Source of the DNA: Methanobacteriota archaeon
Lineage (GTDB): Archaea; Thermoplasmatota; Poseidoniia; Poseidoniales; Poseidoniaceae
Reading direction: 5' to 3'
Assembly (NCBI GenBank): GCA_009937025.1
Contig: JAACDG010000164.1
Coordinates: 85-64,084, forward strand
DNA length: 64,000 nucleotides
A program made the position numbers and the translations under genes. The notes beneath the pieces were generated by a model that was not told the DNA's origin, made no database searches, and saw only the letters and a list, made by a program, of their open reading frames with translations. This document shows, in pieces, positions 23,323 to 39,994 of this stretch (the first letter of the stretch is position 1; each line of letters opens with the position of its first letter).

Positions 23323-24111
23323 TTACTTATCGAGTACTTTATCGGTCATGAATCCCCAGAAATCGATGAGTTCCTGCTCTTCTTTTTCTCCCTTTTCAGT
23401 AGCGTTTTCGATTACCTGATTTTGTAAATCAGTGAACTCTTGAATTTCATCTTCCCACGATTGGTGGAGGGCTGCCATTTCGTTGGATGAAACTCCAATG
23501 ACATCTCTTTCAAATGACTCATACATCTCCATTTCTTCCTCTTCATGGTTGTCCATTTCATCCCATTCACCAGGGAATTCTTCGCTCCCACCGTCAATCA
23601 TATCTTCAGTGACAATCATGGTGTCTTGAAAGATGACAATCTCTTTCAACATATCACGATGACAGACAATGAATTGTGCCAACATCGGAATTTTCAGTGC
23701 TGTTTTGATGTCGTTATACAGTGCGAGTACGAGCGAAACGATTCGGTCTCCAATCGGTAAATTCTGGTTTTTTGAATGTAAGCAAAGGCTAACAGAATAA
23801 TTGTTCTCCACAGCAACATCATTTTGCCATCTTCCAGCAGTCACCGAAAGGGACCATTCCGTAGGACCAGCCATGAAGATATCCGTTTCTGATGAATGGT
23901 ATTGAGATTCAATTTGGTACCATCTACGTGATTCTCCTTGAACACGAACTTTGATCGCCTCATTGGTCAACATGATGATGTTGACATTCGGGGTGTCTTT
24001 TGCAACCGATAGCAACAAATCTACTGAACGGATTTCGGGCTCAGACATACGGTATTTTCCTTCTGACATACGCATTGACCAAATCGAGTCTATATCAAGA
24101 GTAAAGAACAA
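23323..24111 (-). CDS. Acidic cytoplasmic protein, hypothetical
   Basis: 262-aa ORF with no recognisable motif. Very acidic C-terminal half. Confidence 0.4.
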   Translation of the reverse strand: MFFTLDIDSIWSMRMSEGKYRMSEPEIRSVDLLLSVAKDTPNVNIIMLTNEAIKVRVQGESRRWYQIESQYHSSETDIFMAGPTEWSLSVTAGRWQNDVAVENNYSVSLCLHSKNQNLPIGDRIVSLVLALYNDIKTALKIPMLAQFIVCHRDMLKEIVIFQDTMIVTEDMIDGGSEEFPGEWDEMDNHEEEEMEMYESFERDVIGVSSNEMAALHQSWEDEIQEFTDLQNQVIENATEKGEKEEQELIDFWGFMTDKVLDK

Positions 24112-24135: not shown

Positions 24136-24729
24136 ATGGCCAAACTTTGCCCCGCCGTAATTCTGGCTGCTGGAGCCAGTCAGCGCCTTGGGCAACCGAA
24201 ATCATTGGTTGAGATAGGGAACTCAACATTGGTAGGACTCGCCTATAAAAAATTGATAAAAGCAGGTTGTTCACCTGTTATCATCGTGACGCGCAGTGAA
24301 CTTTCAGTCCCAATAATGCAATCAACTCTCGGCTCGACCGTAATTGTGAATTCCGCTCCTGAAGAGGGAAGGACTGGAAGTATTCAATGCGGCATCATGT
24401 CTCTTGCTGGAGATAAAGGAAGAATGCCCAAACAAGTCATCATCGCTCCCGTAGACCGTCCAGGATGGGCAGTAGAGCATATCAAAACACTTGCCTTGGC
24501 CAAAACAAGTTCTACTCTTTCATCAAACGGTCGCCGAGGCCACCCTTTACTCCTCGACCAAGATGCCATTCAAACGGTTCTTGCAGCACCACCTCAAACA
24601 TCTCTACGTGAGTTGATTTCTTTCGATGAAGTCTACGTTGATGCACCTCTTCTTGGATTGAATATCGATCATCCCGAAGATTTGGAACTGTTGAAACAAC
24701 ATGAAATTGTTTTGATGGAAACAGGCTGA
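24136..24729 (+). CDS. mocA: MobA-like NTP transferase (molybdenum cofactor cytidylyltransferase MocA-like)
   Basis: AVILAAGASQRLGQPKSL nucleotide-binding motif. Adjacent to xdhC. Confidence 0.7.
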   Translation: MAKLCPAVILAAGASQRLGQPKSLVEIGNSTLVGLAYKKLIKAGCSPVIIVTRSELSVPIMQSTLGSTVIVNSAPEEGRTGSIQCGIMSLAGDKGRMPKQVIIAPVDRPGWAVEHIKTLALAKTSSTLSSNGRRGHPLLLDQDAIQTVLAAPPQTSLRELISFDEVYVDAPLLGLNIDHPEDLELLKQHEIVLMETG

Positions 24730-24768
24730 AACTCACAGGGCAAAGGGTATGTGTCACCTCCTTGAGGG

Positions 24769-25641
24769 ATGTACATGACTGCGGCGGTGATGGCTTGGGC
24801 CCTTTCCCGTCTTGCTTTGGGGCAACGTGTTGTTCTTGCCAGCGTTGTTGAAACTGCAGGGAGCGTTCCTGGAAAAGTTGGAGCACGCTTGGCTATGGCT
24901 TCCGATGAACAATGGTCGGGAACGGTTGGAGGCGCTGGTTTGGAAATGAAAGTACTTCAGCGTTGTAGAGAACATCTTTCCACTCAACATCATCCATTTG
25001 GAGAAGTTATACGGTACGGTTTGAACAAAGGGGCGAAGGGCTATCAAGTGACACCGCTTGATTCATTATGCGGCGGTCAAGTTACGCTTGCGATCGAGGT
25101 GATGATTCCGATGCCACATGTATTGTTGATGGGTGGAGGTCATTGCGGTCAAGCGATTGCAAACACATTGGATGCCTTGGGTTGGCACCATTCCGTTCAT
25201 GATACTCGGCCTGAATTTTCTGCTGTCAAAATGTATCCCAGTGCTGAACAACTGTCTTCTGTTTCTGTTTCCGAGTTTCTTCAAACAGAAAGTCTCGAAT
25301 CTCTTCGTCGATTTTCAGATGTATTACTTCTCGGACATGACTGGGCTGAAGACGAAGAACGATTGTTGGGTCTCCTGCATTTATATCGTGAAGGAAAAGC
25401 CATTCCAGATGGACATCAAGGTCCTCGAATTGGTGTGATCGGCAGTCGTTCCAAATGGCAGTCGTTTGAAAAAACATGTCTTGAACAGGGCATTGGACAA
25501 CCAATATTGGATGCTATTGTTTGCCCGATTGGATTGAATATCGGCGCAGAATCACCCGAAGAAATCGCTGTGGCAGTCGTTGCTCAAATCATGGCTTCGT
25601 TCAAAGGAGTCGATGCAGAAGCACCGACTTGGAGAACCTGA
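24769..25641 (+). CDS. xdhC: XdhC/CoxI-family Mo-cofactor insertion accessory protein
   Basis: N-terminal XdhC_CoxI domain (VVLASVVETAGSVPGKVGARLAM) and a C-terminal Rossmann-like domain (VLLMGGGHCGQAIAN). Confidence 0.7.
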   Translation: MYMTAAVMAWALSRLALGQRVVLASVVETAGSVPGKVGARLAMASDEQWSGTVGGAGLEMKVLQRCREHLSTQHHPFGEVIRYGLNKGAKGYQVTPLDSLCGGQVTLAIEVMIPMPHVLLMGGGHCGQAIANTLDALGWHHSVHDTRPEFSAVKMYPSAEQLSSVSVSEFLQTESLESLRRFSDVLLLGHDWAEDEERLLGLLHLYREGKAIPDGHQGPRIGVIGSRSKWQSFEKTCLEQGIGQPILDAIVCPIGLNIGAESPEEIAVAVVAQIMASFKGVDAEAPTWRT

Positions 25642-26256: not shown

Positions 26257-27636
26257 ATGGCGGATGAGATAGGGGGCGAAGCGATTCCAACTCCTTTGGA
26301 CACCTCTTCCTTGATGGAACCCAAGGCCCTCATCGCAGTAGGTATCCTCACCTTTCTCCTGATTTTTTCATTCTTTGCTCTTGCGTTAACCGGTGATTCA
26401 TCACCGTTGCCAACGACCCAAGAACCAGAGGATAACGATGGTTGGCGGGCCTTTTCGGTCGTTGCTCCAGTTGATACTGGTATCAATGTCTATCACGACC
26501 ATTTCCGTACCAATGAAACCTTTCCATCTTGGCTTTTAGACGAACTTGGCGTAAACAAAATTTGTGAACTGACCTTTAACGGAACTTGGCAGGAACGCTA
26601 TGATGCTGACAAAGAGGCCTGCTGGGATACCTTGATTGCCAGCGATATCGTTTACTTTCCAGGGACAAAAATCATTGGCACTTCACCAGATGGCGACAGT
26701 GAAATTTTGATTTTAGATGACCCCAGTGATGGGCACGGGTCGGCAGTTACGGGGGCTGTTTTGAACGCAAACCCCAACGCAGTCATCTTCTTTGTCGAAG
26801 GATTTAGCACTGAAGCAGTACTTGCTGCAGCCAATCAACCTCTTGTCGACGTCATCACGACATCGTTTGGAGCGCCGGGTTCAGTGCCAATTTCTGGTAT
26901 TGAACGAGGAACTGAAGTTGCTGTTGTGGAACAAGGAAAAATGCACGCCGGTGCTGCCGATAACAGTCCTTCACCCGCCATACAAGATTCAACTGCTGGT
27001 CCGCCTTGGTCGATTGGAATTGCAGGATATGCGGAAGAAGGCGATGACCAAAAAGAAATCATGTCAGGTTCTTATCCAGATATTTCTGCGGATTGGACCC
27101 AATATCTCCCCAACCACGATGATATTGATGGTTACCATGAAACATCCGGAACCTCATTTGCCACACCTCGAACTGCAGGTATTCTTTCCTCGGTTTTGGA
27201 ATCTTTACGTTTTGAATTTAATGACGATGGGGCAGGTGCCTCTCCAGACATGCGTCAAGGGATGTTAGTGAATGGCACAGACTCGGATGGAAATCCTTTC
27301 CTCGTTTCAAATTCAGATGTCCGTGAAGCCCTCAATCGCTCTGCATGGTACCCCGATTTAGGGTGGGACCCAACATCAGGAACAATGCCTATCTCTCCGG
27401 TAGCTCCATGCACACAAACCGGCTGGGGTTTGGTCAACCTTTCCAATATCGAACCGATGATTGCACACCTGAACCAATCGTCTGAACTTACTCAAAGGCC
27501 CGGAGATGTTGTCGCATGTATGAATGCTAATCAAGAAATGCGAGAGGCGTATTGGAATGCCTACCCTTCAACTCCAGATGCATTCAGCGAACTGTATGTT
27601 ACGGGCTCAGAAGGTGTTGAGCGTCGATTGTATTGA
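26257..27636 (+). CDS. Subtilisin-like serine protease (S8) with N-terminal TM anchor
   Basis: Asp DTGINVYHDHF, His DGHGSAVTGAVL, Ser GTSFATPRTAG. N-terminal TM LIAVGILTFLLIFSFFALALTG. Confidence 0.7.
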   Translation: MADEIGGEAIPTPLDTSSLMEPKALIAVGILTFLLIFSFFALALTGDSSPLPTTQEPEDNDGWRAFSVVAPVDTGINVYHDHFRTNETFPSWLLDELGVNKICELTFNGTWQERYDADKEACWDTLIASDIVYFPGTKIIGTSPDGDSEILILDDPSDGHGSAVTGAVLNANPNAVIFFVEGFSTEAVLAAANQPLVDVITTSFGAPGSVPISGIERGTEVAVVEQGKMHAGAADNSPSPAIQDSTAGPPWSIGIAGYAEEGDDQKEIMSGSYPDISADWTQYLPNHDDIDGYHETSGTSFATPRTAGILSSVLESLRFEFNDDGAGASPDMRQGMLVNGTDSDGNPFLVSNSDVREALNRSAWYPDLGWDPTSGTMPISPVAPCTQTGWGLVNLSNIEPMIAHLNQSSELTQRPGDVVACMNANQEMREAYWNAYPSTPDAFSELYVTGSEGVERRLY

Positions 27637-27637
27637 A

Positions 27638-30600
27638 TCAGAGACTGACCCAATCAATAATGATTTGACCGTTTGCATTCAATCCAACAACAGGTTTGAA
27701 ACCGTCATGAGGCGTAATTTCAATCGATTTCAAAATCGCTTCTAACTTACCTGGAGGCAGGCGGATTTCAAACCCTTGTGAGGTTGAAATTGTTTCAGGC
27801 ATTGGGACGAATACTTCCTCGACAACAACTTCTTCGACTTCTTCGGCCTCTTCTTCAACGATTTCAAAAACTTCTTCAACTTCTTCAACTTCTTCGGCCT
27901 GTCCTTTAACGATTTCAGGAAGTTCTTCCCCAGGGGGCAGTTTTTCCACTTCCTTCAAGAGTGAGGCTTGTTGAATAGTTGCTTGAGGAGCCTGTTGAAC
28001 TTCACCTGTTTCATAAATTCCATCATCATCATCCAACCTTTGCATGGTGAGGAATCCCCAACCTAAAGCAATCAAACCGACTCCAACAAATGAAAGTGCT
28101 TGCATTGTTGTGCTGTCAACATCAATACTGAAGGCGACAAAGGAAAGAATTGAGCCGTAGCCTCCAAGAATTCGTCTCCAACGTGCTTCATAATCAGGAG
28201 CATACCCTTGGATACCAATAGCAATGAGAACAACTGTGGTGAGCACCCAAGCCAGAGACCATTGATCAAGTTCACCAAAGGTGAAGAAAATACCAGCAAG
28301 TGCACTCAAGACTCCCGCCATTCCTAATCGGTCAAGGAAGTCAAGGAAGTCATCATCATTGTCCCATTCAAAGAATTCGAACTCATACACTTTGTCGTTT
28401 TGTAGGGAGAGCCAAGAAATACTCAACCCTTCAATCAGAAGGAACAAGCCGATTGGAATGCCAATTGGTATTGAATCGATTTCCAACTGTATGATGAGAT
28501 TCGCCAGTGCAATTGCATGAATTGCTGGCACGAAGAACAATGCATTTGCATAGCCCTTGAGGAGAATATCGCGAGTAAGTAATACTGCTCCAGCCAATGT
28601 TCCTAGTCCAAGTAATGCTTCAAAACTGAGAATAAAGAAGACATAGGTAGTGATGTAGAGTGTGTCGACAATCCCTTCTCTCTTTTCTTGTGTCAATTCC
28701 TTGTCTTGTTCATTTGAAACATATTTGAAAAGAAGGTCTTTACTGTTCATTAAGGTAAACGTCAGAGCTGAACATGCTGTAAGCAAAGCACTCCATGAAA
28801 AGGCCATAGTGAAATCATCGAATATTTCTTCATAGCCCATTCCAATCAAAAGGCTAATCATGAATCCAATATGGAGGGCTACAATGGTCTCGAGTTTCCC
28901 ATTGATCCACGAATTAATGATGAGATAGGCAAACATAATTGCTGGAATCCAACCGACGCTTGAACTTGCTCCAATCACGCCGACAAGCGCCCAACCCCAC
29001 ACTCCAAACCAAGGCAACGGTTCACGTTCACTGTTACTTTGTTGGACATATTTGTTGTCCATAATAAGGACATATATCATTTGCAGTGTGATGAAAATTC
29101 CACCCAACCGGGTAAGAGATAAAAATCCAAATTCCACAAAGTCATAGGTTGAAGGGTCGGTCATTTCAATGAGATATCTCGCAATTCCCGCTGATTCGAT
29201 CCAATGAGAATTGACGATGAAAAAGGCTACCGGTGAAAGCATCAATGGCCAAACATGGCGATGTTTGACACATCGTACTGTGACCAAACCTATCATCGAT
29301 AGAATCAGCAATCCACCTGAAGTATCAAGACAAGCCAAACCTAACAGCCCAAGCATGGCCCAAGCATCAGCATTGACCGAAAGATGGTCATCATCAATTC
29401 CGCGTTTCGTGATGAGGCTGTTGACATAAAGCGGTGCACTTAGAATCATAATATCGAACAGTATAGGAATAGGAGCCCAAGAGGTGTTTTCATACTCCGC
29501 TAAATATTGCATTTGGCTTCGCAGTATATTGAGACTGATACTCAGAGGAAGCGCGATTGTGAACAACACCCACACACCGGCAGAACGAACGACAGAGGAG
29601 ATAACATCCATATTTTTTATTTCAAGAACCAATCCCATTATCGGCACAAGGAGAAGCAGTGCCCATGGGTAAGAAATCAATGATTCAGCACCATCCCAAT
29701 CGAACTCATTGCCCCATGGATTTACCATTGTTATGAGACTGAAACTCATCATGAAAAACGGAAGAAGAAGGGAGATACGGGTTAATTGACTCCAACTGTT
29801 CTTTTCAACCCAATTCTCAGTTTCTCTGGCCTCTCCATTATTTGGAACATTCCAAGAGTTGGTTTCAGCATCATATATTGGTGCACTTACAGCAAAACGT
29901 TTTGTCCAATTGAATAACAGACCCAAATCCAATTCAATTTCCCGAGATGCATAGAGTGCCCAATACCCCAATGCTCCAAGAATAAAGATTTGATAATTGA
30001 AATATTCAGGCAATGGTACTTGTTCAAAAGCCACAGGAACATCGATGCGGTCGAGGATGGTGAGGATAATCATCGAAGTAAAGGCGATGAACGATACAAG
30101 GGTCGCTTGCATTTTCTCCTCCCAAGAACTGTCGATCGTAAGGTTGCTAAACGTGTTTCGTGCAAGATATAGCATATAGCCGATGAAAATCCATGGCATA
30201 AACCAGTCTTCTGCTTGAAGAATAGTTCGAGAGAGAACAAGTGAACCAAGCATAACTAAATGTGTCCATGTCGAAATTTTGTCGTTTTGTCGAGCGAATT
30301 CGGAAATACAAAACAAAGCAATCGGAATAATGACTTGCATGCCATCATATCCGAAAGTCTCAGAAAGAGGCGTATTGTTGATATTAGCAAAAACATCGGT
30401 GAAAAAGAAAGCGAGTGCTAATGCGCTAAAGGTGTAATCAGCAACCCATCGCCGGGTTGCTTTAGCGATAAACAACATGTATGGCACCATCAAGAGTGTG
30501 ATGGCCCAAGGAATGACGCTCCCATCATTTGGTAACATGACCAGGGCCGCAGCCAAGCCAATAGGCATCCATGGCACTCTGCGCTGTTGTACTGCTGGGA

Positions 30601-31750
30601 AATAGAATATCAAAACAGCAATCCAAAGAGCGACACTCAGTCCAAAGATATTTTCAATACCTAATTCTGCAGATTTTATTGGTCCAATATGCAAATTTAA
30701 GTTTTCAACATTGGCGATATACATAGCGAAGACGATTTCTCCAACCAGCACAATCGATGCTTTTTGAATTAATTCTGAACGCAATTCTTTTCGAGAGGCA
30801 TAATAGCCTTGGATTGCTATGATGAAGATGAGAAGAGAAATTGCTCCACCTGCGCCGTTTGATTCTGCATTGGTGTTGAATACTTCAAAAAGAATGGGTA
30901 TGAATCCCGAAACAACGGCTACAACGACAAAGTTGAGAGCTTTATTGGACCGCAACGCCATTTCCATGGCTGCAAAGCAAAGAAGAATAAGAGAAAGCCC
31001 CATTTCATAGGAAATGATGTTATCAGTCCATTTCATCCAAGGGCCCATACCTGCAGCAAGCAAGACCAATATCGGGGCATAGGCAGCGACTGCACGTCCA
31101 AAACCAGTGGCGCCTTTGAAGCGTTTCAAAAGTTGAAGTTCAGCAAAAATCAAAGCAAGCATTGCTGCTGTTTGAACATAGATTGCTTTTGCATTTGGAT
31201 GCCAGTCCACCCATGTTCCAGTTGATTCATCAATCCATCCCATGTTATTGAATTGAGTTTGTGAGCCAAAAATGTCAGTCCAACCTTCTCCTGTTACGAA
31301 TCCAATCAACCATCGTGAACCCCAAATGGTGCCCACTGTCGCAAAAAAGAATCCAATCCCGAGCATATAATCTTGAACTTCATACAACACATGGTCATTC
31401 TTTTTACTTTGAGCCTCAATCCATCCAATCGCAATTCCTGCCGATAAAAACCCACCTAAAAACAAGATTAAGAAATCGGAATTCGTTGCGTCATCTGCAA
31501 ATGCTATTTGAAACAGTCCACCCCAAATAGCCGCTAAAGCAATACACATCATTATGAGTTGTGAAAATTTCATCAATGTACGATTTGAATCTGAAATTAC
31601 ACCCCCCGGTGCTCGAACAACCATTGGCTGTTCAATCGGTTTCGAATCGGTAAAAATGGTACCCGTGGGTGTTGGTGTATTGGCTTTTGCCAATAATCCG
31701 TGAGGTTGTTCATTCATTCTTCGAGGTGCAGAACGTCGTGGAGCCGCCAT
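27638..31750 (-). CDS. Giant polytopic membrane protein (~1370 aa, ~35-40 TM), hypothetical, with acidic EEVEEV-repeat C-terminal domain
   Basis: Continuous 1403-codon ORF. The start is uncertain (31849, 31750 or 31717). Dozens of hydrophobic helices and no AglB WWDYG motif. C-terminal ...EEVEEVEEVFEIVEEEAEEVEEVVVEEVF.... Confidence 0.6.
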   Translation of the reverse strand: MAAPRRSAPRRMNEQPHGLLAKANTPTPTGTIFTDSKPIEQPMVVRAPGGVISDSNRTLMKFSQLIMMCIALAAIWGGLFQIAFADDATNSDFLILFLGGFLSAGIAIGWIEAQSKKNDHVLYEVQDYMLGIGFFFATVGTIWGSRWLIGFVTGEGWTDIFGSQTQFNNMGWIDESTGTWVDWHPNAKAIYVQTAAMLALIFAELQLLKRFKGATGFGRAVAAYAPILVLLAAGMGPWMKWTDNIISYEMGLSLILLCFAAMEMALRSNKALNFVVVAVVSGFIPILFEVFNTNAESNGAGGAISLLIFIIAIQGYYASRKELRSELIQKASIVLVGEIVFAMYIANVENLNLHIGPIKSAELGIENIFGLSVALWIAVLIFYFPAVQQRRVPWMPIGLAAALVMLPNDGSVIPWAITLLMVPYMLFIAKATRRWVADYTFSALALAFFFTDVFANINNTPLSETFGYDGMQVIIPIALFCISEFARQNDKISTWTHLVMLGSLVLSRTILQAEDWFMPWIFIGYMLYLARNTFSNLTIDSSWEEKMQATLVSFIAFTSMIILTILDRIDVPVAFEQVPLPEYFNYQIFILGALGYWALYASREIELDLGLLFNWTKRFAVSAPIYDAETNSWNVPNNGEARETENWVEKNSWSQLTRISLLLPFFMMSFSLITMVNPWGNEFDWDGAESLISYPWALLLLVPIMGLVLEIKNMDVISSVVRSAGVWVLFTIALPLSISLNILRSQMQYLAEYENTSWAPIPILFDIMILSAPLYVNSLITKRGIDDDHLSVNADAWAMLGLLGLACLDTSGGLLILSMIGLVTVRCVKHRHVWPLMLSPVAFFIVNSHWIESAGIARYLIEMTDPSTYDFVEFGFLSLTRLGGIFITLQMIYVLIMDNKYVQQSNSEREPLPWFGVWGWALVGVIGASSSVGWIPAIMFAYLIINSWINGKLETIVALHIGFMISLLIGMGYEEIFDDFTMAFSWSALLTACSALTFTLMNSKDLLFKYVSNEQDKELTQEKREGIVDTLYITTYVFFILSFEALLGLGTLAGAVLLTRDILLKGYANALFFVPAIHAIALANLIIQLEIDSIPIGIPIGLFLLIEGLSISWLSLQNDKVYEFEFFEWDNDDDFLDFLDRLGMAGVLSALAGIFFTFGELDQWSLAWVLTTVVLIAIGIQGYAPDYEARWRRILGGYGSILSFVAFSIDVDSTTMQALSFVGVGLIALGWGFLTMQRLDDDDGIYETGEVQQAPQATIQQASLLKEVEKLPPGEELPEIVKGQAEEVEEVEEVFEIVEEEAEEVEEVVVEEVFVPMPETISTSQGFEIRLPPGKLEAILKSIEITPHDGFKPVVGLNANGQIIIDWVSL

Positions 31751-31907
31751 ATCAATCAATGAGACTATTCCCATTGAGGACTTAATGCTTGACCCGTTTA
31801 CAGAACTCAAGAACCTGTATCTAGCATCAATTTTCTTCTTCAACACCACTGCACTTTATTTCAATGGGTTCAAATGCCGGAGGCGATTGGATAGATTTGG
31901 TGAAAAG

Positions 31908-33806
31908 ATGTTTGCAACACGAAAAGCAATAACTTTACTCTGCTTAGGAATCATGGTACTTCCAACTTTAGCTATGGCTGCCCCAGTCTCTATCTCCTCC
32001 GAGTCTTCCGAAGAAGTGGGTTGGTGGGTTGACACAACCGTTGACCGTAACGGCAACGGAATTGGAGACATGATTGAAGTTCACAAAGACAGTCCGTATT
32101 TCCTTGATGAAGATAACACACTACCACTGATTATAGATTTTGACCATACGCCTGGCGAGGTTGAAATCGCCCTGCTTGAGCGTGAAATTGATTTCCAACA
32201 TCAATGGACTCTCGAAGGAATTGATGCATTAGCAGGTCGAGTTCCTGTCGATCACATTCTCGATGCTACTACGCTTCCAGGAGTCGTCATGCTCGAACTC
32301 GATGGTATTCTAACGACCACCAACGGCGATGCTGCGGTTCTTCACGGTGTTGATACGGTGTGGGCAGATACAGGATACGATGGAGCGGGTTCTGCTGTCG
32401 CAATTATTGACACTGGAATCGATGGGGCCCATGCCAGTCTTGATGACTTAGATGATGACAATTCAACCAATGACCCAAAGGTCATAGCATTCTACGACCC
32501 AGTCAACAATCCGAGTCTCGTCAACGGTACTGAAGTCTTCCCATACGACGACCAAGGCCACGGTTCACACTGTGCAGGAACAACCGCTGGAACCGGCGCT
32601 CCGATTTACGAGCATGTTGGAATGGCACCTCAAGCATTCCTTGTCGGCGTCAAAGTCCTTGATGCTGGTGGTTCAGGTTCTTTCGCTGTTGTTATGGCTG
32701 GAATGGAATGGACCGTTGAGAATCGCTACAAATTCAATATTCGAGCAGCATCGATGAGCCTTGGAGGTCCAGGAGCGATTGAATGGACATCTTCGGAAGA
32801 AGACAGCGTGAACCGCTACGCCAATGAAATGATGGCCGCTGGAGTGGCTATCTTTATCGCAGCAGGTAATAGTGCAGTTTCAGCTCAAATCGGAACGCCA
32901 GGTTCTGCTGAAGACGCTATTACTGTGGGTGCCCTCGACAAGAACTCTGCTATCGCAGTTTATTCGAGTCAAGGTCCTACTGAAGAAGGTCGCGTCAAAC
33001 CAAATGTTGCATATGTTGGTAGTAACGTGATGTCGGTTGCTTTCAACACTGGCGACCAATACACCGACATGTCAGGAACCTCAATGGCGACACCTGGAGC
33101 AGCTGGAGTTGCTGCTTTAATGTATCAAGCCAATCCTGACCTTTCACCGTTTGACATTCGTAATATCATGCAGGAGACTGCGACGTACCGAATGTGCAAC
33201 TACATGTTTGCAAACGAGCCCTGTTTGGAAGATCTGATTCCAAAAAATCGCCAAAACAACGTCTATGGCCATGGTGAAGTTCGAGCTCTTGATTCAGTCT
33301 ATGAAGCCGCAGAACGAGATTATGCGTTCGATAAATCCCTCGATATTTCACTCACAACCGAAATTGGAATGGATAATCGAATCCATATGTTCCCTGAAGA
33401 CAGCTTATCCTATTCTGCTCTTGGCGATGTTGACACGGTTCAATGGCGCAGCAACCACCTTCGAGATGATTGGTCGAACATTCACAGTTTTGGCCATGGC
33501 GATAGCAGTGGAACTTTGGCAGCCATTGATATCATTCACCAACTCGAGCACTTACCAGGTACCGAGCTTGAAGGGAACCATACCATTTCGCTTCGTGGAA
33601 TCAAAGCAAATGACTCAGGCGGCCACACATCATCACCGTTGATTTCAGCGAACATCATGCTCATGGATACTGATTCTGCATTCGATACTATGTCAAAAGA
33701 TACAGACAGATTACCGTTCCTCTCTGCAGCTTCAATGGTTGCTGTTCTTGTTCTTGCTGGCGTTGTATCTGGAAGTCGAAGAGACGAAAACCAAGATGAA
33801 AAGTGA
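31908..33806 (+). CDS. Subtilisin-like serine protease (S8) with signal peptide and C-terminal TM anchor
   Basis: Signal MFATRKAITLLCLGIMVLPTLAMAAP. Asp DTGIDGAHASL, His HGSHCAGT, Ser GTSMATPGAAG. C-terminus RLPFLSAASMVAVLVLAGVVSGSRRDENQDEK. Confidence 0.85.
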   Translation: MFATRKAITLLCLGIMVLPTLAMAAPVSISSESSEEVGWWVDTTVDRNGNGIGDMIEVHKDSPYFLDEDNTLPLIIDFDHTPGEVEIALLEREIDFQHQWTLEGIDALAGRVPVDHILDATTLPGVVMLELDGILTTTNGDAAVLHGVDTVWADTGYDGAGSAVAIIDTGIDGAHASLDDLDDDNSTNDPKVIAFYDPVNNPSLVNGTEVFPYDDQGHGSHCAGTTAGTGAPIYEHVGMAPQAFLVGVKVLDAGGSGSFAVVMAGMEWTVENRYKFNIRAASMSLGGPGAIEWTSSEEDSVNRYANEMMAAGVAIFIAAGNSAVSAQIGTPGSAEDAITVGALDKNSAIAVYSSQGPTEEGRVKPNVAYVGSNVMSVAFNTGDQYTDMSGTSMATPGAAGVAALMYQANPDLSPFDIRNIMQETATYRMCNYMFANEPCLEDLIPKNRQNNVYGHGEVRALDSVYEAAERDYAFDKSLDISLTTEIGMDNRIHMFPEDSLSYSALGDVDTVQWRSNHLRDDWSNIHSFGHGDSSGTLAAIDIIHQLEHLPGTELEGNHTISLRGIKANDSGGHTSSPLISANIMLMDTDSAFDTMSKDTDRLPFLSAASMVAVLVLAGVVSGSRRDENQDEK

Positions 33807-33903: not shown

Positions 33904-35511
33904 TTGTTCATGCGCTGGCCCAAAGACCCTTCCGGAAAAGGCCATCCACGCATGAATCGTGTGTATCGCTTCCTTCGTCGATTTTCCAGATCGTTGGTCA
34001 GCATCTGGTTTCGAGAAATCAATATTGTCGATGATGAAAACATTCCTCCCGAAGGCGGCGTAATTTTCATTTCTTGGCATCCAAGTGGACTGATTGACCC
34101 GATGCTCATGCACGCATCATTGCCCGGTAAACTTTCGATGATTGCCAAACATACGCTATTCAAAATCCCAATATTGGGCCGGTTGATTCGAAGTGCTGGT
34201 GCAGTACCAATCGAACGTGCCCAAGACAGTTCAGACAAAACCGGTTCAAAAAATCGAAATAAGAAACAATTGGACTCTGTGGCATCTGTTGTAGCGGATG
34301 GTGGTCGATTGATTATTTTCCCTGAAGGGACGACACATACTGATTCGTCAGTCAAACGCGCCCGTTCTGGTGCTGCTCGTATTCTTCTTGCTGCAATTCG
34401 AAAAGCACATGAAGAGGGAAAGCCTACTCCACATTTGGTTCCAATAGGCCTCCATTATTCAGAATCTCAAACTTTCAGGGAAAGAGCGGCAGTTATCGTC
34501 GAACGGGTCATGGAGTTCGATGCCATTCCAAAAGTGATGGCAGATGAAGAGGAGCAAGACAAACTCGAAAGAGCCTGGGTTTCTTCGGTTACCGATGCCA
34601 TCGGAACTGAACTCAAGCGAGCAAGCCTTTCAAAGACCACATGGCGAGAACGAACACTCATATGGAAAGGTAGAAGTTTAGCTTATGCCGAAAAAATTCG
34701 CCAAACAGGTGGTAAATTGGTTAAACCCACCTATGCTGAATCGGTAATGGGTGCTCGTCGCATTCGGGCAGGGTGGGAATATTTGGCTGAAAATAGGCCT
34801 GCTTTGACAAAACAGTTAGTCGAAGATTGCGACAAACACTTTGAGCAGTTGGAGCAACGAAATTTAGTACCACTGGATGTCGATGCACGTCCTGAACGTC
34901 TTACAAGGGGTGCGTCAGCGAAATTACTCCTCTCTTGGTCATGGGCTGCAGTATGGATGTTTGGCCTCATAACATGGAGTGCGGTTATTGGTAACCTTAT
35001 TCCTTATCGTGGAAATGCACTCGCTGTTAAAATCATGAAAAAGAAAGGTGCTGAACAATCGATTATTGGTACCTTGAAGGTGGTTACAGCCGTGATATTC
35101 TTCCCTCTTTGGTGGATTGTTATATCAGCGGCAATCACTTGGTTGTTGTTGGTTGAAGCCAGCCCAGTGAATGAACTGCTGCAGATGCATTGGTTGTTGG
35201 CATTACTCACGAATCTACCCTTCATTTTGGTCTTCCTCATTCTGTTTATTTGGTGGCCGAATTCAGCGAAACTCCACATGAAGTTATACGCTCGCCTAGT
35301 CATTAAAACACGTCAAATACGCCGGTGGAACGCATGGAAAGTTGATGAGCATAACTGGGATGAATTGGTCCATAATCAACGTCAACTTGCTGGACGATTA
35401 GTCGGTTTAGGAGAAGGCCTCATTCTGCCTGGCGATGAAGATTGGGTCAACCCTCCAGCAGGCAAAGACGATGTCGTCTCGGTAAAAATGAGAAGCACGA
35501 CCACGCTTTGA
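33904..35511 (+). CDS. plsC: Lysophospholipid (1-acyl-sn-glycerol-3-phosphate) acyltransferase PlsC-like, with C-terminal membrane extension
   Basis: HX4D (WHPSGLID), FPEGT and VPIERA acyltransferase motifs. The C-terminal ~200 aa contains 3-4 TM helices. Confidence 0.75.
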   Translation: MFMRWPKDPSGKGHPRMNRVYRFLRRFSRSLVSIWFREINIVDDENIPPEGGVIFISWHPSGLIDPMLMHASLPGKLSMIAKHTLFKIPILGRLIRSAGAVPIERAQDSSDKTGSKNRNKKQLDSVASVVADGGRLIIFPEGTTHTDSSVKRARSGAARILLAAIRKAHEEGKPTPHLVPIGLHYSESQTFRERAAVIVERVMEFDAIPKVMADEEEQDKLERAWVSSVTDAIGTELKRASLSKTTWRERTLIWKGRSLAYAEKIRQTGGKLVKPTYAESVMGARRIRAGWEYLAENRPALTKQLVEDCDKHFEQLEQRNLVPLDVDARPERLTRGASAKLLLSWSWAAVWMFGLITWSAVIGNLIPYRGNALAVKIMKKKGAEQSIIGTLKVVTAVIFFPLWWIVISAAITWLLLVEASPVNELLQMHWLLALLTNLPFILVFLILFIWWPNSAKLHMKLYARLVIKTRQIRRWNAWKVDEHNWDELVHNQRQLAGRLVGLGEGLILPGDEDWVNPPAGKDDVVSVKMRSTTTL

Positions 35512-35597
35512 TACGAATCATAACTTGGCAATCCCTCAACCAGTGCATACCCTATGTTGATATGCGGGCTCCACCACGTCGCCTTTGGCGACTGATT

Positions 35598-36200
35598 ATG
35601 GTAGGCAGCGAACACATCAAAATGATACCCGCTCCTGACAAGAATATTTGGTCTGCTGAAGTGAATGGGGCTCCTGTGGAAGTCCTCGTCGCTTCGAATG
35701 CAATTCTTCTTGATGTGCTTCGCGACAAAGTCGGGACGCTTGGCGTAAAACGTGGATGCGACATGGGCACTTGTGGCTGTTGTACGGTCATGGTCGATGG
35801 AGCCCCTCGCCTCTCTTGCCTGTGTTTGGCTGGACAAGTTGAAGGCTCTGAAATTACAACGGTTGAAGGTTTGGCAGACGGTGCTCACCTGGCTCCAATT
35901 CAATCGTGTTTTGCCGAATATGGTGGCTCACAGTGTGGCTTTTGTACACCTGGTTTCTTGATAAGCGCCCAAGCACTATTGAATGAGAACGATACGCCGA
36001 CAGAGCAAGAAATCGCCTGTGCAATCGAAGGGAACCTTTGCCGTTGCACTGGCTATCAACAAATCATCGAATCCATTCAAGGAGCAGCTGCGATACATCG
36101 CGGCGAAGTCGCAGCAGCAGCCCCTGCAAGCGATGCTCATCCTGACCCTCATCCAGATGGACCTGATGAGCCAAATATGCCTCCTGGCCACGCTCGGTGA
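35598..36200 (+). CDS. coxS: Molybdenum hydroxylase small subunit, 2x[2Fe-2S] (CoxS/XdhA-like)
   Basis: CDMGTCGCCTV (plant-type cluster), then CGFCTPG and CRCTGY (second cluster). The start is an internal Met of ORF 35442. Confidence 0.9.
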   Translation: MVGSEHIKMIPAPDKNIWSAEVNGAPVEVLVASNAILLDVLRDKVGTLGVKRGCDMGTCGCCTVMVDGAPRLSCLCLAGQVEGSEITTVEGLADGAHLAPIQSCFAEYGGSQCGFCTPGFLISAQALLNENDTPTEQEIACAIEGNLCRCTGYQQIIESIQGAAAIHRGEVAAAAPASDAHPDPHPDGPDEPNMPPGHAR

Positions 36201-36206
36201 TGTTTC

Positions 36207-38627
36207 ATGTCTGGAGGATACCGTCAACAACCCGGGGGTTCTGGCCCCACGACCCGTAAAGACGGTAAGCGCGTAGCAGGAAAGCAAGCATTCCCTCCAC
36301 CTGGCTCTGGAGGCTCCAAGCCAAAGATGGCCACTCGAGACCTTGATTTTATCCCTGAATCGGTCGGTGGAAAAGAACCACAACCTGCCGGCTCCCACAT
36401 CCACGACCGAGTTCGAACAGGAACCAGTGTCGGAAAAGAAATGCCTTTGGTTGATTCAAATGCTAAAGTGACTGGTCAAGCATGGTATGGAGATGATGTA
36501 CGATTGCCCAATGAAGTGATTGGCAAGATACTTCGTTCCCCTCACCATTATGCCAGAATTAAATCAATTGACACAACACGTGTCGAAGCCCTTCCTGGTG
36601 TGCTGGCAGTTGCCACAGGTGCTGACTCTCCTCACCGTTTTGGTGTCCTTCCTGTGACCAAAGACGAACACGCAATGGCAGTCGAGAAAGTTCGGCATGT
36701 TGGCGATTTAGTGGCATGTGTTGCTGCAATTGATGAATCAACCGCACTTGAGGCACTCAATTTATTCGATATTGAATGGGAAATCCTAGAACCGGTATTC
36801 GACCCGAAAAAGGGACTTGAAGATGCTGATGAACCGATTCATTGGCGAGGAAAGTATCATTTGGCAAAAACCAATGTGCAAAAGCGAGTCTTTCAAGAAT
36901 TTGGCGACCGCTCTTTGGTCGAAAAACCTCATGCTGAGTCCCATGGAAAATGGAAAATGGCAGGCGTCCATCATGGTTTCACTGAACCACATGCTGTTGT
37001 GGCTCACTGGGACCCAAACGGCCGATTACAACTTTACACGCCTCAGCAAGTTCCGCATTATACTCACCGAGCCCTTTCGACAGTTCTCGATGTTCCAATG
37101 CATCAAATCAACGTTATTCGAACATTTGTTGGCGGGGGTTTTGGTGGAAAATCAGATCCGTTCCCACATGAAATGTGTGCAGCGATTTTGTCGCGTAAAT
37201 CCGGACGCCCAGTCCGCATCACCTTCGACCGAGAAGAAGTCTACTGGATTAACCGAGGACGGCATCCAAGCCATATCGAAGTCAAGATGACTGCAGATGA
37301 AGATGCTCGAATTTCTGGTTTTGATATCGATGCACTCATCGATGGAGGCGGTTTTGCATCTTTTGGACACGTCACTTCGTATTACAATGGAGTCTTAGCA
37401 ACTGCACCGTATGAATTGGGTTCATTCCATTATACAGGTGCAAGAGTTTGGACAAACAAACCCGCTTCAGGTGCCATGCGTGGACACGGAGCCGTCAATA
37501 CCCGATGTGCTGTTGAAGTCGGTTTGGATGAAATGGCAGAAACAATGCAAGTTGACCCAATCGATTTGCGTTTAGCGAACCTCCTTCCACCACACAGTCG
37601 AACAATCAGTGGTTTTCGAATTACTTCAAACGGTATGCGTGAAGCTCTGGAAAAGGTACGAACAGGTTCAAATTGGGATGAAAAATTCCGTAAGTTGCCG
37701 CTGGGCAAGGGCATTGGTATCGGTTGTGGCTTCTTCATATCGGGTTCAGGTTTGCCGATTCATTGGGACCCTAACCGATTCCCGCATGCAACCGTCCACA
37801 TGCAAGTTGACATGGACGGTGGTGTTACTGTTCACACTGGAGCAGCCGACATCGGCCAGGGTTCGACTACAGCAGTTGCCCAAGTCGTTTCAGAAGTTCT
37901 CGCCCTTCCAATTGAGATGATTCATGTCCGAAGCCATGAAAGCGACACCTCTCCAGTCGATTTGGGTTCCTATTCCAGCCGAGTCACATTCATGAATGCC
38001 AATGCTGCAATTCGTGCTGCGCTCGAGATACGTGAACAACTGCTCAATGCGGCTTGGGAAATGCTTGGCTATCATCCAAACAATTTAGTTTTGAATGACC
38101 GTAGGATATACTACAAACACGACCCAGCAGTGGGAGTATCATACCTCAAAGCACTACATAAAGCCCAGGAGGACAAGGGTGCATTGATTGCAAGCGGTGC
38201 CTACCGCTCTCCACCAATGGGTGGCGTTCACAAGGGTGCTGCTGCCGGTTTGGCACCAGCGTATTCCTTTTCGGCCTATGTTGCTGAAGTCGACGTCGAT
38301 GTCGAAACTGGAATAATTCGTTGTACCAATGTATGGGCCGCTCACGATTGTGGAAAAGCACTCAATCCATTAGCCGTGAAAGGTCAAATCATTGGTTCTT
38401 GCCATATGGGATTGGGCCAAGTACTTTCGGAACAGATGGTCTATGGTCGAACAGGTCATTTGCAAAACGCCAACCTTCTCGATTACAAAATCCCCTCCGT
38501 CCATGAAATGCCTCATGTTGAACCCATCATCATCGAATCGTGCGACCCAGAAGGGCCATTCGGGGCGAAAGAGGCTGGAGAAGGCCCCTTACTTCCAATT
38601 CTACCTGCTGTTGTCAACGCAGTATAG
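36207..38627 (+). CDS. coxL: Xanthine-dehydrogenase-family molybdopterin-binding large subunit (CoxL-like), terminated by an in-frame TAG about 25 codons before the canonical C-terminus
   Basis: N-terminus ...RSPHHYARIKSIDTTRVEALPGVLAVATG. Overall ~800-aa Mo-binding architecture. No AYRCSFR (form I CODH) loop seen. Ends GEGPLLPILPAVVNAV-TAG; the family consensus ...NA[IV][FY]DA[TI]G.R...LP.TP continues in-frame after the TAG. Confidence 0.85.
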   Translation: MSGGYRQQPGGSGPTTRKDGKRVAGKQAFPPPGSGGSKPKMATRDLDFIPESVGGKEPQPAGSHIHDRVRTGTSVGKEMPLVDSNAKVTGQAWYGDDVRLPNEVIGKILRSPHHYARIKSIDTTRVEALPGVLAVATGADSPHRFGVLPVTKDEHAMAVEKVRHVGDLVACVAAIDESTALEALNLFDIEWEILEPVFDPKKGLEDADEPIHWRGKYHLAKTNVQKRVFQEFGDRSLVEKPHAESHGKWKMAGVHHGFTEPHAVVAHWDPNGRLQLYTPQQVPHYTHRALSTVLDVPMHQINVIRTFVGGGFGGKSDPFPHEMCAAILSRKSGRPVRITFDREEVYWINRGRHPSHIEVKMTADEDARISGFDIDALIDGGGFASFGHVTSYYNGVLATAPYELGSFHYTGARVWTNKPASGAMRGHGAVNTRCAVEVGLDEMAETMQVDPIDLRLANLLPPHSRTISGFRITSNGMREALEKVRTGSNWDEKFRKLPLGKGIGIGCGFFISGSGLPIHWDPNRFPHATVHMQVDMDGGVTVHTGAADIGQGSTTAVAQVVSEVLALPIEMIHVRSHESDTSPVDLGSYSSRVTFMNANAAIRAALEIREQLLNAAWEMLGYHPNNLVLNDRRIYYKHDPAVGVSYLKALHKAQEDKGALIASGAYRSPPMGGVHKGAAAGLAPAYSFSAYVAEVDVDVETGIIRCTNVWAAHDCGKALNPLAVKGQIIGSCHMGLGQVLSEQMVYGRTGHLQNANLLDYKIPSVHEMPHVEPIIIESCDPEGPFGAKEAGEGPLLPILPAVVNAV

Positions 38628-39985: not shown

Positions 39986-39994
39986 AGTGATACA

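What the first reader, a model, noticed from the sequence alone, without database searches (positions are those of the whole stretch)
26257..33806. Giant ~35-40-TM membrane protein bracketed by two membrane-anchored subtilases
A single ~1370-codon ORF (27638-31750, minus strand) encodes dozens of hydrophobic helices with no recognisable transporter or AglB motif. Its C-terminal tail is acidic (EEVEEVEEVFEIVEEEAEEVEEVVVEEVF), followed by ...QGFEIRLPPGKLEAILKSIEITPHDGFKPVVGL.

It is convergent (2-nt gap) with an N-terminally anchored S8 protease. It is divergent from a second S8 protease that carries a signal peptide and a C-terminal anchor. Proteins of this size and TM count are rare. The arrangement suggests a protease-associated envelope machine, possibly peptide uptake or processing, or a scaffold.
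Basis: seen in the sequence. Interest (0 to 1): 0.55.

Follow-up and report, generated by a model that had tools for sequence, protein, structure and literature searches.

The report
Giant 38-helix orphan archaeal membrane protein
This is a real 1370-residue membrane protein with about 38 membrane-spanning helices, found only in the abundant marine Group II archaea (Poseidoniales), that resembles no known protein family or solved structure; its two neighbouring proteases joined it only in one branch of the group.

Summary
ORF 27638-31750 (-) is one intact 1370-codon gene, and full-length relatives occur in at least 194 Poseidoniales species representatives.

- **Structure:** AlphaFold2 gives confident models (residues 50-600: pLDDT 90.8, pTM 0.87; residues 50-1245: pLDDT 82.2, pTM 0.67) with 38 transmembrane helices.
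- **Topology:** The positive-inside rule fits N-in/C-in. The acidic tail and a conserved ~50-residue C-terminal domain are therefore cytoplasmic, and outside loops are at most 33 residues.
- **Homology:** Nothing matches in Pfam, NCBIfam, PADLOC or PDB sequences, nor by Foldseek against PDB or BFVD. No internal repeats were found.
- **Proteases:** Both neighbours are S8 proteases with invariant catalytic residues. The divergent one is adjacent in 67 of 71 loci with enough upstream flank; all four exceptions lack it, and two of those are Thalassarchaeaceae or more distant relatives. The convergent one is adjacent in 40 of 75. All six Thalassarchaeaceae (MGIIb) loci examined lack both.

The "protease machine" reading is only partly supported. 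My best guess, at low confidence, is a new transporter- or channel-like membrane module with a cytoplasmic coupling domain. Function remains untested. I file it as a new family and fold.

The parts
27638..31750 (-). Giant membrane protein gene, 1370 codons plus stop (27638-27640). It belongs to an orphan family restricted to Poseidoniales.
   Evidence: ORF. 192 homologues, most of them full length. 194 GTDB species representatives encode a relative. No Pfam or NCBIfam match.
31592..31750 (-). N-terminal cytoplasmic tail, residues 1-53, with the conserved MAAPxR..P.R start and a net positive charge.
   Evidence: family mean K+R 4.4 against D+E 1.9.
30371..31591 (-). Conserved N-terminal core, TM1-TM13 (residues 54-460). 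It is the best conserved part and the part best shared with the most distant relatives.
   Evidence: Column conservation 0.66 against 0.50 for the rest. The best HMM stretch in distant members covers profile positions 14-403. AF2 pLDDT is about 90-97 here.
30446..30586 (-). Short-helix hairpin TM11-TM12 (residues 389-435). It is proline-rich and flanked by the invariant cytoplasmic residues R391/P393 and R433/W435.
   Evidence: The AF2 helices are 12 and 17 residues long. These residues are invariant across the order.
28031..30370 (-). TM14-TM38 (residues 461-1240). This part is less conserved. It includes a 60-residue cytoplasmic loop (599-658) and the conserved W1191-R-R motif.
29261..29377 (-). 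Short-helix hairpin TM23-TM24 (residues 792-830), with the order-wide conserved tip L-D809-x-S811-G812-G813.
   Evidence: The AF2 helices are 15 and 17 residues long. D809, S811, G812 and G813 are at least 94% conserved in both families.
27806..28030 (-). Acidic, low-complexity cytoplasmic linker (residues 1241-1315), variable in length and sequence.
   Evidence: Conservation 0.27. The whole cytoplasmic tail (1241-1370) has a family mean D+E of 25 against K+R of 5.9.
27641..27805 (-). Conserved C-terminal cytoplasmic domain (residues 1316-1370), with the pattern GFxIRLPxxxxxxIxxxIxxTPHxGFxPVVxFxxxGxIxLxFE. The sequence pattern suggests strand-helix-strand-strand; no structure was predicted for it.
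   Evidence: It is present in every family member, including the most distant. It was found in no other protein context.
26257..27636 (+). Convergent, divergent-sequence S8 serine protease (459 aa) with an N-terminal signal-anchor. It is present in only about half of the Poseidoniaceae-type lineages.
   Evidence: Peptidase_S8 at 24.8 bits against a 21.8 cut-off. D73/H160/S300 and the oxyanion Asn are invariant in 38 of 38 orthologues. Adjacent in 40 of 75 loci. No PDB sequence relative.
31908..33806 (+). Divergent S8 subtilase (632 aa from the likely start; the ORF opens at 31785) with a signal peptide and a C-terminal TM anchor.
   Evidence: Peptidase_S8 at E 4e-49. The closest solved relative is entry 3afg, a subtilisin-like serine protease, at E 4e-48. 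The triad is invariant in 68 of 68 orthologues. Adjacent in 67 of 71 loci.
31751..31907 (.). 157-bp divergent intergenic region between the giant gene and the S8 gene, presumably holding both promoters.
   Evidence: Sequence read directly. No promoter test was made, because the available scan does not cover archaeal promoters.

Best explanation
**Shown.** The ORF is a genuine single-copy gene for a 1370-residue integral membrane protein. It belongs to an orphan family confined to the archaeal order Poseidoniales (Marine Group II, both Poseidoniaceae and Thalassarchaeaceae).
- It has 38 predicted transmembrane helices, with both termini in the cytoplasm and only short outside loops.
- It has a strongly conserved N-terminal 13-helix core.
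- A conserved ~50-residue cytoplasmic C-terminal domain hangs on a variable acidic linker.
- It has no detectable sequence or structural relative among described families or solved structures.
- The two flanking S8 proteases are active-type, membrane-anchored extracellular enzymes. They became its neighbours only in Poseidoniaceae.

**Inferred, at low confidence.** The protein works on its own as a membrane-intrinsic translocation module, that is, a new type of transporter or channel for an ion or small solute.
- The pathway would be built around three cytoplasm-anchored hairpins of unusually short helices (TM11-12, TM23-24, TM27-28). Their conserved polar, Gly- and Pro-rich tips (LPxDxS, L-D-x-S-G-G, SSxxGW) would sit within the bilayer. 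Conserved intramembrane R146 and interface arginines (R391, R433, R722, R1192, R1193) would contribute.
- The tethered C-terminal domain would couple it to a cytoplasmic partner or regulate it.
- In Poseidoniaceae the shared divergent promoter region with the subtilase may co-regulate the two genes, but the protease is not an obligate part of the mechanism.
For: **Real and conserved.**
- Full-length relatives of 1290-1470 aa extend down to 33% identity.
- 194 species representatives encode a relative, and the 80 best listed are nearly all named as Poseidoniales or unclassified euryarchaeotes (two look mis-binned).
- Thalassarchaeaceae members are 1230-1290 aa.
- Only 181 hits appear among 1.84 billion cluster representatives.

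**Architecture.**
- AF2 of residues 50-1245 gives pLDDT 82.2 and pTM 0.67, with 38 helices. AF2 of residues 50-600 gives pLDDT 90.8 and pTM 0.87.
- Family-mean K+R is 22.7 in the 'in' loops against 4.1 in the 'out' loops.

**Orphan status.**
- No family matches in Pfam, NCBIfam or PADLOC. This includes all 31 diverse members scanned against Pfam at E<=10.
- The PDB profile search finds only low-complexity noise.
- Foldseek against PDB and BFVD gives no hit better than E about 0.04 for the high-confidence N-half. For the long model, only soluble alpha-solenoids appear, at TM-scores of 0.1-0.3.

**Transport-like features.**
- Three hairpins have helices of 12-17 residues against 20-32 for the others.
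- D809/S811/G812/G813, R146, R391, R433, R722 and R1192/R1193 are conserved order-wide.

**Independence from the proteases.**
- No S8 gene lies next to the gene in L084 and L086-L091, or next to P0156 (L085).
- The convergent S8 gene is present in 40 of 75 loci.
Against: - There is no positive evidence of transport. No transporter family or fold matches, although most transporter folds are represented in the PDB.
- No internal or inverted repeat was detectable.
- Conserved intramembrane acidic residues are few.
- 38 helices are far more than any known transport mechanism needs.
- I could not inspect model coordinates. The re-entrant nature of the short hairpins and the existence of a cavity are therefore inferred from helix lengths only.
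- The near-constant adjacency of the divergent subtilase in the Poseidoniaceae-type loci, kept even after an orientation change in L072, could mean a real functional link.
Confidence: 0.4

Rival explanations
1. Protease-associated envelope machine. The giant protein would be the membrane platform for the two anchored subtilases, docking their TM anchors. It might also take up or process the peptides they release.
For: - The divergent S8 gene is adjacent in 67 of 71 loci with enough upstream flank, and 77 of the 78 adjacent copies found share a short divergent intergenic region.
- In L072 the S8 gene sits co-directionally 18 nt upstream, an operon-like arrangement.
- Both proteases carry single TM anchors and invariant catalytic residues.
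- MGII archaea are known protein degraders, and subtilase genes are highly transcribed (PMC6336850, PMC9723583).
Against: - The giant gene occurs without any adjacent S8 gene in all six Thalassarchaeaceae loci and in P0156, L076 and L082.
- The convergent S8 gene is missing from about half of the loci with enough downstream flank.
- The whole region is syntenic, so adjacency can be inherited without any functional link.
- The giant protein's conserved soluble parts are cytoplasmic, and its outside loops are at most 33 residues.
- The proteases are about 75% identical across loci where the giant protein is about 38% identical, so there is no sign of matched evolutionary rates.
- Most MGII genomes already have an oligopeptide transporter (PMC6336850).
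Confidence: 0.2
2. Structural or mechanical membrane protein. It would be a very large in-plane scaffold that organises or stabilises the membrane of these archaea, or senses membrane tension. This would be analogous to Piezo in function, not related to it by descent.
For: - It has 38 TM helices, almost no extramembrane mass outside the cell, and a very large membrane footprint.
- The conserved residues are mostly Trp, Arg, Pro and Gly at the membrane interfaces rather than catalytic-type residues.
- The TM region diverges fast (38% against 75% identity for the neighbouring protease), as expected for lipid-facing helices.
- The only Foldseek hits are helical solenoids and toroids. This hints at sequential up-down helix packing, but the hint is weak because TM-scores are at most 0.3.
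Against: - There is no similarity to Piezo or any mechanosensitive channel by Pfam or Foldseek, and no repeated 4-helix units.
- A pure scaffold would not obviously need the conserved short-helix hairpins with polar tips, or a conserved tethered cytoplasmic domain.
Confidence: 0.2
3. Enzyme or flippase acting on a lipid-linked substrate, such as a GT-C-like glycosyltransferase, a glycan polymerase or ligase, or a polyprenyl-phosphate handling protein.
For: - Large polytopic proteins with conserved interface arginines and re-entrant helix-loop-helix elements occur among such enzymes (my own knowledge of the GT-C and UppP families, not tested here).
- A PlsC-type acyltransferase gene lies next to the S8 gene in many loci.
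Against: - No Pfam hit to STT3, PMT_2, DUF2298, Wzy_C or MOP families, even at E<=10 in 31 members.
- The first outside loop is 6 residues long, and no outside loop exceeds 33 residues.
- WWDxG occurs in 2 of 178 members.
- D809 is the only acidic residue assigned to an outside loop that is conserved order-wide.
- Foldseek finds no GT-C, SEDS or flippase structures.
Confidence: 0.08
4. Partner of the neighbouring CoxSLM/xanthine-dehydrogenase-type molybdenum hydroxylase, as substrate importer or membrane anchor. The reason is that the gene sits between the hydroxylase structural genes and xdhC in both families of the order.
For: - The gene is bracketed by the Fer2 (CoxS-like) subunit gene and xdhC in L001-L004 (Poseidoniaceae) and in L087/L088, L089 and L091 (Thalassarchaeaceae). 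In the Thalassarchaeaceae loci no protease lies in between.
- This association is therefore older than the one with the proteases.
Against: - The gene is on the opposite strand to the hydroxylase genes.
- Other members (L084, L085, L086, L090) lie in unrelated contexts.
- No conserved His or Cys is available for haem or metal binding.
- The association can be explained by an inherited chromosomal position.
Confidence: 0.07
5. Artefact: several genes fused by frameshifts or assembly error, or a non-coding ORF.
For: None found. The window does differ from the public contig by 18 SNPs in 24 kb, one of them inside this gene.
Against: - More than 115 independently assembled full-length orthologues have the same length and are collinear end to end.
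- AF2 models are confident and continuous.
- The C-terminal domain is conserved in all members.
Confidence: 0.01

Closest known systems
Piezo mechanosensitive channels (eukaryotes)
   Same: A single chain with 38 predicted transmembrane helices and a very large in-plane membrane footprint. The Piezo helix count is from my own knowledge.
   Different: - No Pfam Piezo hit and no Piezo structure among the listed top-50 Foldseek hits.
- No repeated 4-helix units by profile self-comparison.
- No large extracellular cap.
- It is archaeal and about half the length.
GT-C glycosyltransferases / oligosaccharyltransferases (AglB/STT3, DUF2298, PMT_2)
   Same: Large archaeal polytopic membrane proteins. 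The conserved N-terminal core here has 13 helices, like the STT3 core (my own knowledge).
   Different: - No Pfam match at E<=10 in 31 members.
- The first outside loop is 6 residues rather than a long loop carrying a DxD/ExD motif.
- No WWDxG motif and no soluble outside domain.
- No Foldseek match.
RND/MMPL transporters
   Same: Large membrane proteins with 12 or more helices.
   Different: No Pfam or NCBIfam match. No large periplasmic loops. No internal duplication. No Foldseek match.
Antiporter-like subunits of complex I / Mrp (NuoL/ND5, MBS subunit H)
   Same: They are the only membrane proteins among the listed top Foldseek hits of the N-half (6q9b_D5 at E 0.064, 6u8y_H at E 0.22, 6zku_L at E 0.59). 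They also contain discontinuous helices (my own knowledge).
   Different: TM-scores are 0.15-0.18 and E-values are not significant. No Proton_antipo_M Pfam hit. The conserved Lys/Glu chain was not looked for.
Subtilisin-like serine protease of PDB entry 3afg and other S8 subtilases (for the flanking genes only)
   Same: The divergent neighbour matches Peptidase_S8 over the full model (E 4e-49) and matches 3afg at E 4e-48, with an invariant Asp/His/Ser triad.
   Different: It carries a C-terminal TM anchor. The convergent neighbour is a very divergent S8 (24.8 bits, no PDB sequence hit) with an N-terminal signal-anchor. The two are not close paralogues.

Membership tests
RND / MMPL transporters | Match to the family profiles (Pfam ACR_tran or MMPL). 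| tested here: not met
   No Pfam or NCBIfam hit for the window protein, nor for 31 diverse members at E<=10.
RND / MMPL transporters | 12-TM architecture made of two 6-TM repeats, each with a large extracytoplasmic loop. | tested here: not met
   38 helices, the largest outside loop is 33 residues, and no internal repeat.
GT-C / OST (STT3/AglB, DUF2298, PMT_2) | Match to the family profiles. | tested here: not met
   No hit at E<=10 in 31 members. No Foldseek hit to any GT-C structure among the listed matches.
GT-C / OST (STT3/AglB, DUF2298, PMT_2) | A long first external loop with an acidic DxD/ExD motif, plus the WWDxG motif and a C-terminal soluble outside domain (for STT3/AglB). | tested here: not met
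   The first outside loop is 6 residues (FADDAT). WWDxG occurs in 2 of 178 members and not in the window protein. The C-terminal domain is predicted to be cytoplasmic.
Piezo | About 38 TM helices. | tested here: met
   38 helices in the AF2 model, consistent with the positive-inside rule.
Piezo | Nine repeated 4-TM units plus a C-terminal pore module and cap, with sequence or structure similarity to Piezo. | tested here: not met
   No internal repeats. No Pfam hit. No Piezo chain among the listed Foldseek hits.
Secondary-transporter superfamilies (MFS, APC/LeuT, DMT and others) | Profile match or fold match; internal (inverted) structural repeats. | tested here: not met
   No Pfam hit. Pfam does not reproduce the JGI label 'DMT superfamily YnfA' on P0002. 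No Foldseek match. No sequence repeat. Structural repeats could not be examined without coordinates.
Peptidase S8 (divergent neighbour, 31908-33806) | Pfam PF00082 match above the gathering score, and an Asp/His/Ser triad in DTG / HGT(S) / GTSxA motifs. | tested here: met
   167.9 bits against 21.8. The triad and oxyanion Asn are invariant in 68 of 68 orthologues. Matches 3afg at E 4e-48.
Peptidase S8 (convergent neighbour, 26257-27636) | Pfam PF00082 match above the gathering score, and an Asp/His/Ser triad. | tested here: met
   24.8 bits against 21.8, a marginal pass. The VDTGI, DGHGS and SGTSFATP motifs are invariant in 38 of 38 orthologues. No PDB sequence hit.
Ribbon-helix-helix DNA-binding domain (considered for the C-terminal domain) | Strand, helix A, helix B, with a significant profile match. 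| tested here: not met
   Only a 19-residue match to AmrZ at E 0.19. The segment after the helix is rich in beta-branched residues with a conserved Gly turn, unlike a second helix. No structure was predicted for this domain.

The most novel reading that the evidence does not exclude
The family is a previously undescribed class of giant single-chain membrane machine with a new fold, specific to one of the most abundant archaeal groups in the surface ocean. It would be either a new transporter or channel architecture, or a Piezo-scale tension- or curvature-sensing protein that arose independently in archaea. Its tethered cytoplasmic domain would relay the signal.
Probability: 0.2. Interest if true: 0.8.

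Novelty: categorically new. Interest (0 to 1): 0.58.

Why it matters
Poseidoniales are among the most abundant planktonic archaea and have never been cultured. A single-copy gene conserved across the order, encoding about 38 membrane helices, must do something basic at the cell surface of these organisms. With these tools it falls outside every described protein family and solved fold. The high-confidence predicted structure (pLDDT 91 for the conserved half) makes it a concrete target for structural and transport studies. Either a new transport or channel architecture, or a prokaryotic protein on the scale of Piezo, would be of general interest to membrane biology. The work also shows that the eye-catching protease-giant-protease trio is a lineage-specific gene arrangement and not a conserved three-part system.

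Tried and rejected
- **Internal duplication.** Profile self-comparison and N-half against C-half gave at best 8.6% probability, so I rejected it.
- **Known families.**
  - Pfam, NCBIfam and PADLOC on the window protein.
  - Pfam on distant relatives.
  - Pfam on 31 members at E<=10, looking for consistent weak hits.
  - Nothing was found. The JGI name 'DMT superfamily YnfA' on P0002 was not reproduced.
- **Solved structures by sequence.** Whole-family and C-domain profiles gave only acidic low-complexity noise and a 19-residue RHH-like match at E 0.19. I rejected the RHH reading because the second half of the domain looks like a beta-hairpin.
- **Fold search.** The full TM region against PDB, and the N-half against PDB and BFVD, returned only soluble helical repeats and noise-level NuoL-like hits.
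- **C-terminal domain in other proteins.** The search returned only fragments of the same family.
- **Whole-protein structure prediction.** I therefore modelled residues 50-1245 and 50-600. The C-terminal domain itself was not modelled.
- **Defence-system reading of the subtilase.** The matches to a generic PADLOC 'subtilase' model and to IetS models lie in the S8 catalytic domain, and neither the giant protein nor the other protease matches any PADLOC model. I rejected it.
- **Literature.** Searches for a described giant MGII membrane protein found nothing specific.

Full report
**1. The observation**

The window carries an uninterrupted minus-strand ORF at 27638..31849. The ATG at 31750 gives 1370 residues and begins MAAPRR, which is the conserved start of the family. 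The public gene call on a near-identical contig starts eight codons earlier.

The convergent gene 26257-27636 ends one base before the giant gene's stop codon, so the gap is 1 nt rather than 2. The divergent ORF opens at 31785, but its likely start is 31908 (MFATRKAITLLCLGIMVLPTLAMA). That leaves 157 bp between the two start codons.

Both neighbours are S8 subtilases.
- The divergent one matches Peptidase_S8 at E 4e-49. Its closest solved relative is entry 3afg, a subtilisin-like serine protease.
- The convergent one only just passes the Pfam cut-off (24.8 against 21.8 bits) and has no PDB sequence relative.
- In both, the Asp/His/Ser motifs and the oxyanion Asn are invariant in all orthologues recovered: 68 of 68 and 38 of 38.
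- They are not close paralogues of each other.

**2. A real gene, not a fusion**

A search of 5.8 billion proteins returned 192 relatives. The 120 best are almost all 1300-1400 residues and align over the full length, down to 33% identity. Where a source names them, they are called hypothetical proteins of Candidatus Poseidoniaceae or Poseidonia.

A scan of GTDB species representatives found 194 stretches encoding a relative. The 80 kept are nearly all named as Poseidoniales or unclassified euryarchaeotes, and two look mis-binned. An exhaustive HMM search of 1.84 billion cluster representatives found only 181 hits, so the family is small and taxonomically closed.

The most distant full-length members are 1218-1290 residues and 18-26% identical, and belong to Candidatus Thalassarchaeaceae. 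One member is 1812 residues long. The family therefore spans both families of the order.

**3. Architecture**

AlphaFold2 was run with 116-141 family sequences.

| Residues modelled | Mean pLDDT | pTM |
|---|---|---|
| 50-1245 | 82.2 | 0.67 |
| 50-600 | 90.8 | 0.87 |

Both models give the same helices, 38 membrane-spanning helices in all. The unmodelled ends have no hydrophobic segment.

Taking the helices in order with the N-terminus inside, the family-mean K+R content is 22.7 in the 'in' loops and 4.1 in the 'out' loops. This is a strong positive-inside signal for an N-in/C-in topology.

- Outside loops are short (at most 33 residues) and acidic.
- The largest non-membrane parts are all cytoplasmic. 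They are the 53-residue N-tail, a 60-residue loop (599-658) and the 130-residue C-terminal tail.

Conservation is uneven.

| Region (residues) | Column conservation |
|---|---|
| TM1-13 (54-460) | 0.66 |
| Later TM region (661-1240) | 0.50 |
| Acidic linker (1241-1315) | 0.27 |
| Last 55 residues (1316-1370) | 0.62 |

That last segment has the pattern GFxIRLPxxxxxxIxxxIxxTPHxGFxPVVxFxxxGxIxLxFE. The sequence suggests strand-helix-strand-strand, but I did not model it. It is present in every member, including the most distant, and was found in no other protein.

Residues conserved in both families are mostly Trp, Arg, Pro and Gly:
- R146, inside TM3;
- R391/P393 and R433/W435, on the cytoplasmic flanks of TM11-12;
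- E710 and R722;
- D809-x-S811-G812-G813, at the tip between TM23 and TM24;
- W1191-R1192-R1193.

Three hairpins are made of unusually short helices of 12-17 residues: TM11-12, TM23-24 and TM27-28. Their cytoplasmic ends are basic and their tips are conserved, polar or Gly/Pro-rich. From helix length alone I infer that they may not cross the bilayer fully. I could not look at the coordinates.

**4. What it is not**

- No Pfam, NCBIfam or PADLOC family matches the window protein or distant members.
- No Pfam family recurs among 31 diverse members scanned at E<=10. This covers MMPL/RND, STT3, DUF2298, PMT_2, Piezo, Proton_antipo_M and the large polytopic DUFs.
- A JGI label, 'DMT superfamily protein YnfA', on one homologue is not reproduced.
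- Profile searches of PDB sequences give only acidic low-complexity noise.
- Foldseek of the 1196-residue model against the PDB returns soluble alpha-solenoids at TM-scores of 0.1-0.25.
- Foldseek of the high-confidence N-half returns nothing below E 0.05. The hits are TPR proteins, designed toroids and NuoL-like subunits, all at TM-scores of 0.3 or less. BFVD gives nothing either.
- Profile self-comparison finds no internal repeat.
- There is no WWDxG motif, and the first outside loop is six residues long.

No AlphaFold-DB search and no HHpred were available. The 'no relative' statement is limited to Pfam, NCBIfam, PADLOC, PDB and BFVD.

**5. The protease association**

On the contig of the window, and in three relatives at 35-42% identity, the gene order is:

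Mo-hydroxylase (FAD, MoCo, Fer2 subunits), [acyltransferase], S8, giant, [S8-like], RNase T, XdhC, MobA-like

Brackets mark genes that are not always present. Over the 88 loci held:

| Neighbour | Adjacent | Orientation |
|---|---|---|
| Divergent S8 | 67 of 71 loci with at least 2 kb upstream | 77 of 78 copies divergent, 1 co-directional |
| Convergent S8 | 40 of 75 loci with at least 1.5 kb downstream | all 43 copies convergent |

- The four loci without the divergent S8 gene are L076, L082, L085 (P0156) and L087 (Thalassarchaeaceae).
- The co-directional case is L072, where the S8 gene lies 18 nt upstream in an operon-like arrangement.
- The convergent S8 gene is absent from the whole Poseidonia clade.
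- In L076 and L082 an LVIVD-repeat protein occupies the S8 position.

Thalassarchaeaceae loci show a different picture. In L087/L088, L089 and L091 the giant gene lies directly between the Fer2 subunit gene and xdhC, with no protease at all. L084, L086 and L090 are in other contexts, again without a protease.

The giant gene is therefore the ancient, order-wide element. The trio is a Poseidoniaceae arrangement, and the convergent protease is an even narrower addition.

Across the loci, the divergent protease is a median 75% identical to the window copy, while the giant protein is 38% identical. The window genes cannot be co-transcribed. The protease catalytic domains are extracellular, whereas the giant protein's conserved soluble parts are cytoplasmic.

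Published work reports an oligopeptide transporter in most MGII genomes and high subtilase transcription in both families (PMC6336850, PMC9723583). A regulatory or physical link with the divergent subtilase in Poseidoniaceae remains possible, but the protein does not depend on it.

**6. Most likely mechanism**

The following are shown:
- an order-specific, single-copy, 38-TM protein with N-in/C-in topology;
- a conserved 13-helix N-terminal core;
- a conserved tethered cytoplasmic domain;
- no known relative.

The following is inferred, at low confidence (about 0.3-0.4 for the function itself). It is a membrane-intrinsic translocation module, a new kind of transporter or channel. Its functional site would be formed by the short-helix hairpins with conserved polar tips, by intramembrane R146, and by the ring of conserved interface arginines. 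The C-terminal domain, on its flexible acidic linker, would couple it to a cytoplasmic partner.

Four points count against this:
- there is no transporter homology or fold match;
- there is no detectable internal symmetry;
- there are few conserved intramembrane charges;
- the helix count far exceeds what known mechanisms need.

The rivals are:
- a protease platform (0.2);
- a structural or tension-sensing scaffold (0.2);
- an enzyme or flippase for a lipid-linked substrate (0.08);
- a partner of the adjacent Mo-hydroxylase, whose genes bracket it in both families (0.07);
- an artefact (0.01, refuted).

**7. Novelty and score**

By every comparison available here, the family and its confidently predicted fold lie outside described families, so I file it as categorically new. 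The caveat is that HHpred and AlphaFold-DB searches are still needed. Interest is moderate to high (0.58). The protein is a core, very unusual membrane protein of a globally abundant uncultured archaeal order, and a good structural model now exists. No function has been demonstrated.

Noticed in passing
window 38625-38627 (ORFs 36207-38627 and 38646-39011): The Mo-hydroxylase large-subunit gene is split by an in-frame TAG in the window. The near-identical public contig (L001) has TAC there and an intact 934-aa ORF. It is one of 18 SNPs in 24,137 shared bases, so it is either a nonsense variant or an assembly error.
   Followed up: partly
window 24136-25641 and 35562-41000; L087-L089, L091: The giant gene lies antisense inside a CoxSLM/xanthine-dehydrogenase-type gene string (FAD, MoCo and Fer2 subunits on one side, XdhC and a MobA-like gene on the other). 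This holds in both Poseidoniaceae and Thalassarchaeaceae, so the association is older than the one with the proteases.
   Followed up: partly
L072:1994-7909: In one lineage (MAG Guaymas_28) the S8 protease gene is co-directional and ends 18 nt before the giant gene. A ceramidase-like gene and a thiolase gene lie downstream.
   Followed up: partly
L076:43-3791 and L082:10-3890: Two lineages have a 669-aa LVIVD-repeat protein gene and a 242-aa gene without a Pfam match upstream of the giant gene, instead of the S8 protease. In L076 the next ORF upstream also carries a thrombospondin type-3 repeat.
   Followed up: no
L085:5381-10819 (P0156): One family member is 1812 aa, about 450 residues longer than the rest. 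It sits in an unrelated context next to a DUF3754 protein. The extra region was not examined.
   Followed up: no
L007 and L014 (MAG SI034_bin128): The same MAG carries two copies of the giant gene on two contigs, 66-68% identical to the window protein. They are either paralogues or two strains in one bin.
   Followed up: no
window 33904-35511: A 535-aa PlsC-type acyltransferase (Pfam Acyltransferase, E 2e-22) lies next to the divergent S8 gene in many, but not all, Poseidoniaceae loci.
   Followed up: no
window 23323-24111: A conserved 241-262-aa gene without any Pfam match lies between the MobA-like and acyl-CoA dehydrogenase genes in the four loci with called genes, L001-L004.
   Followed up: no
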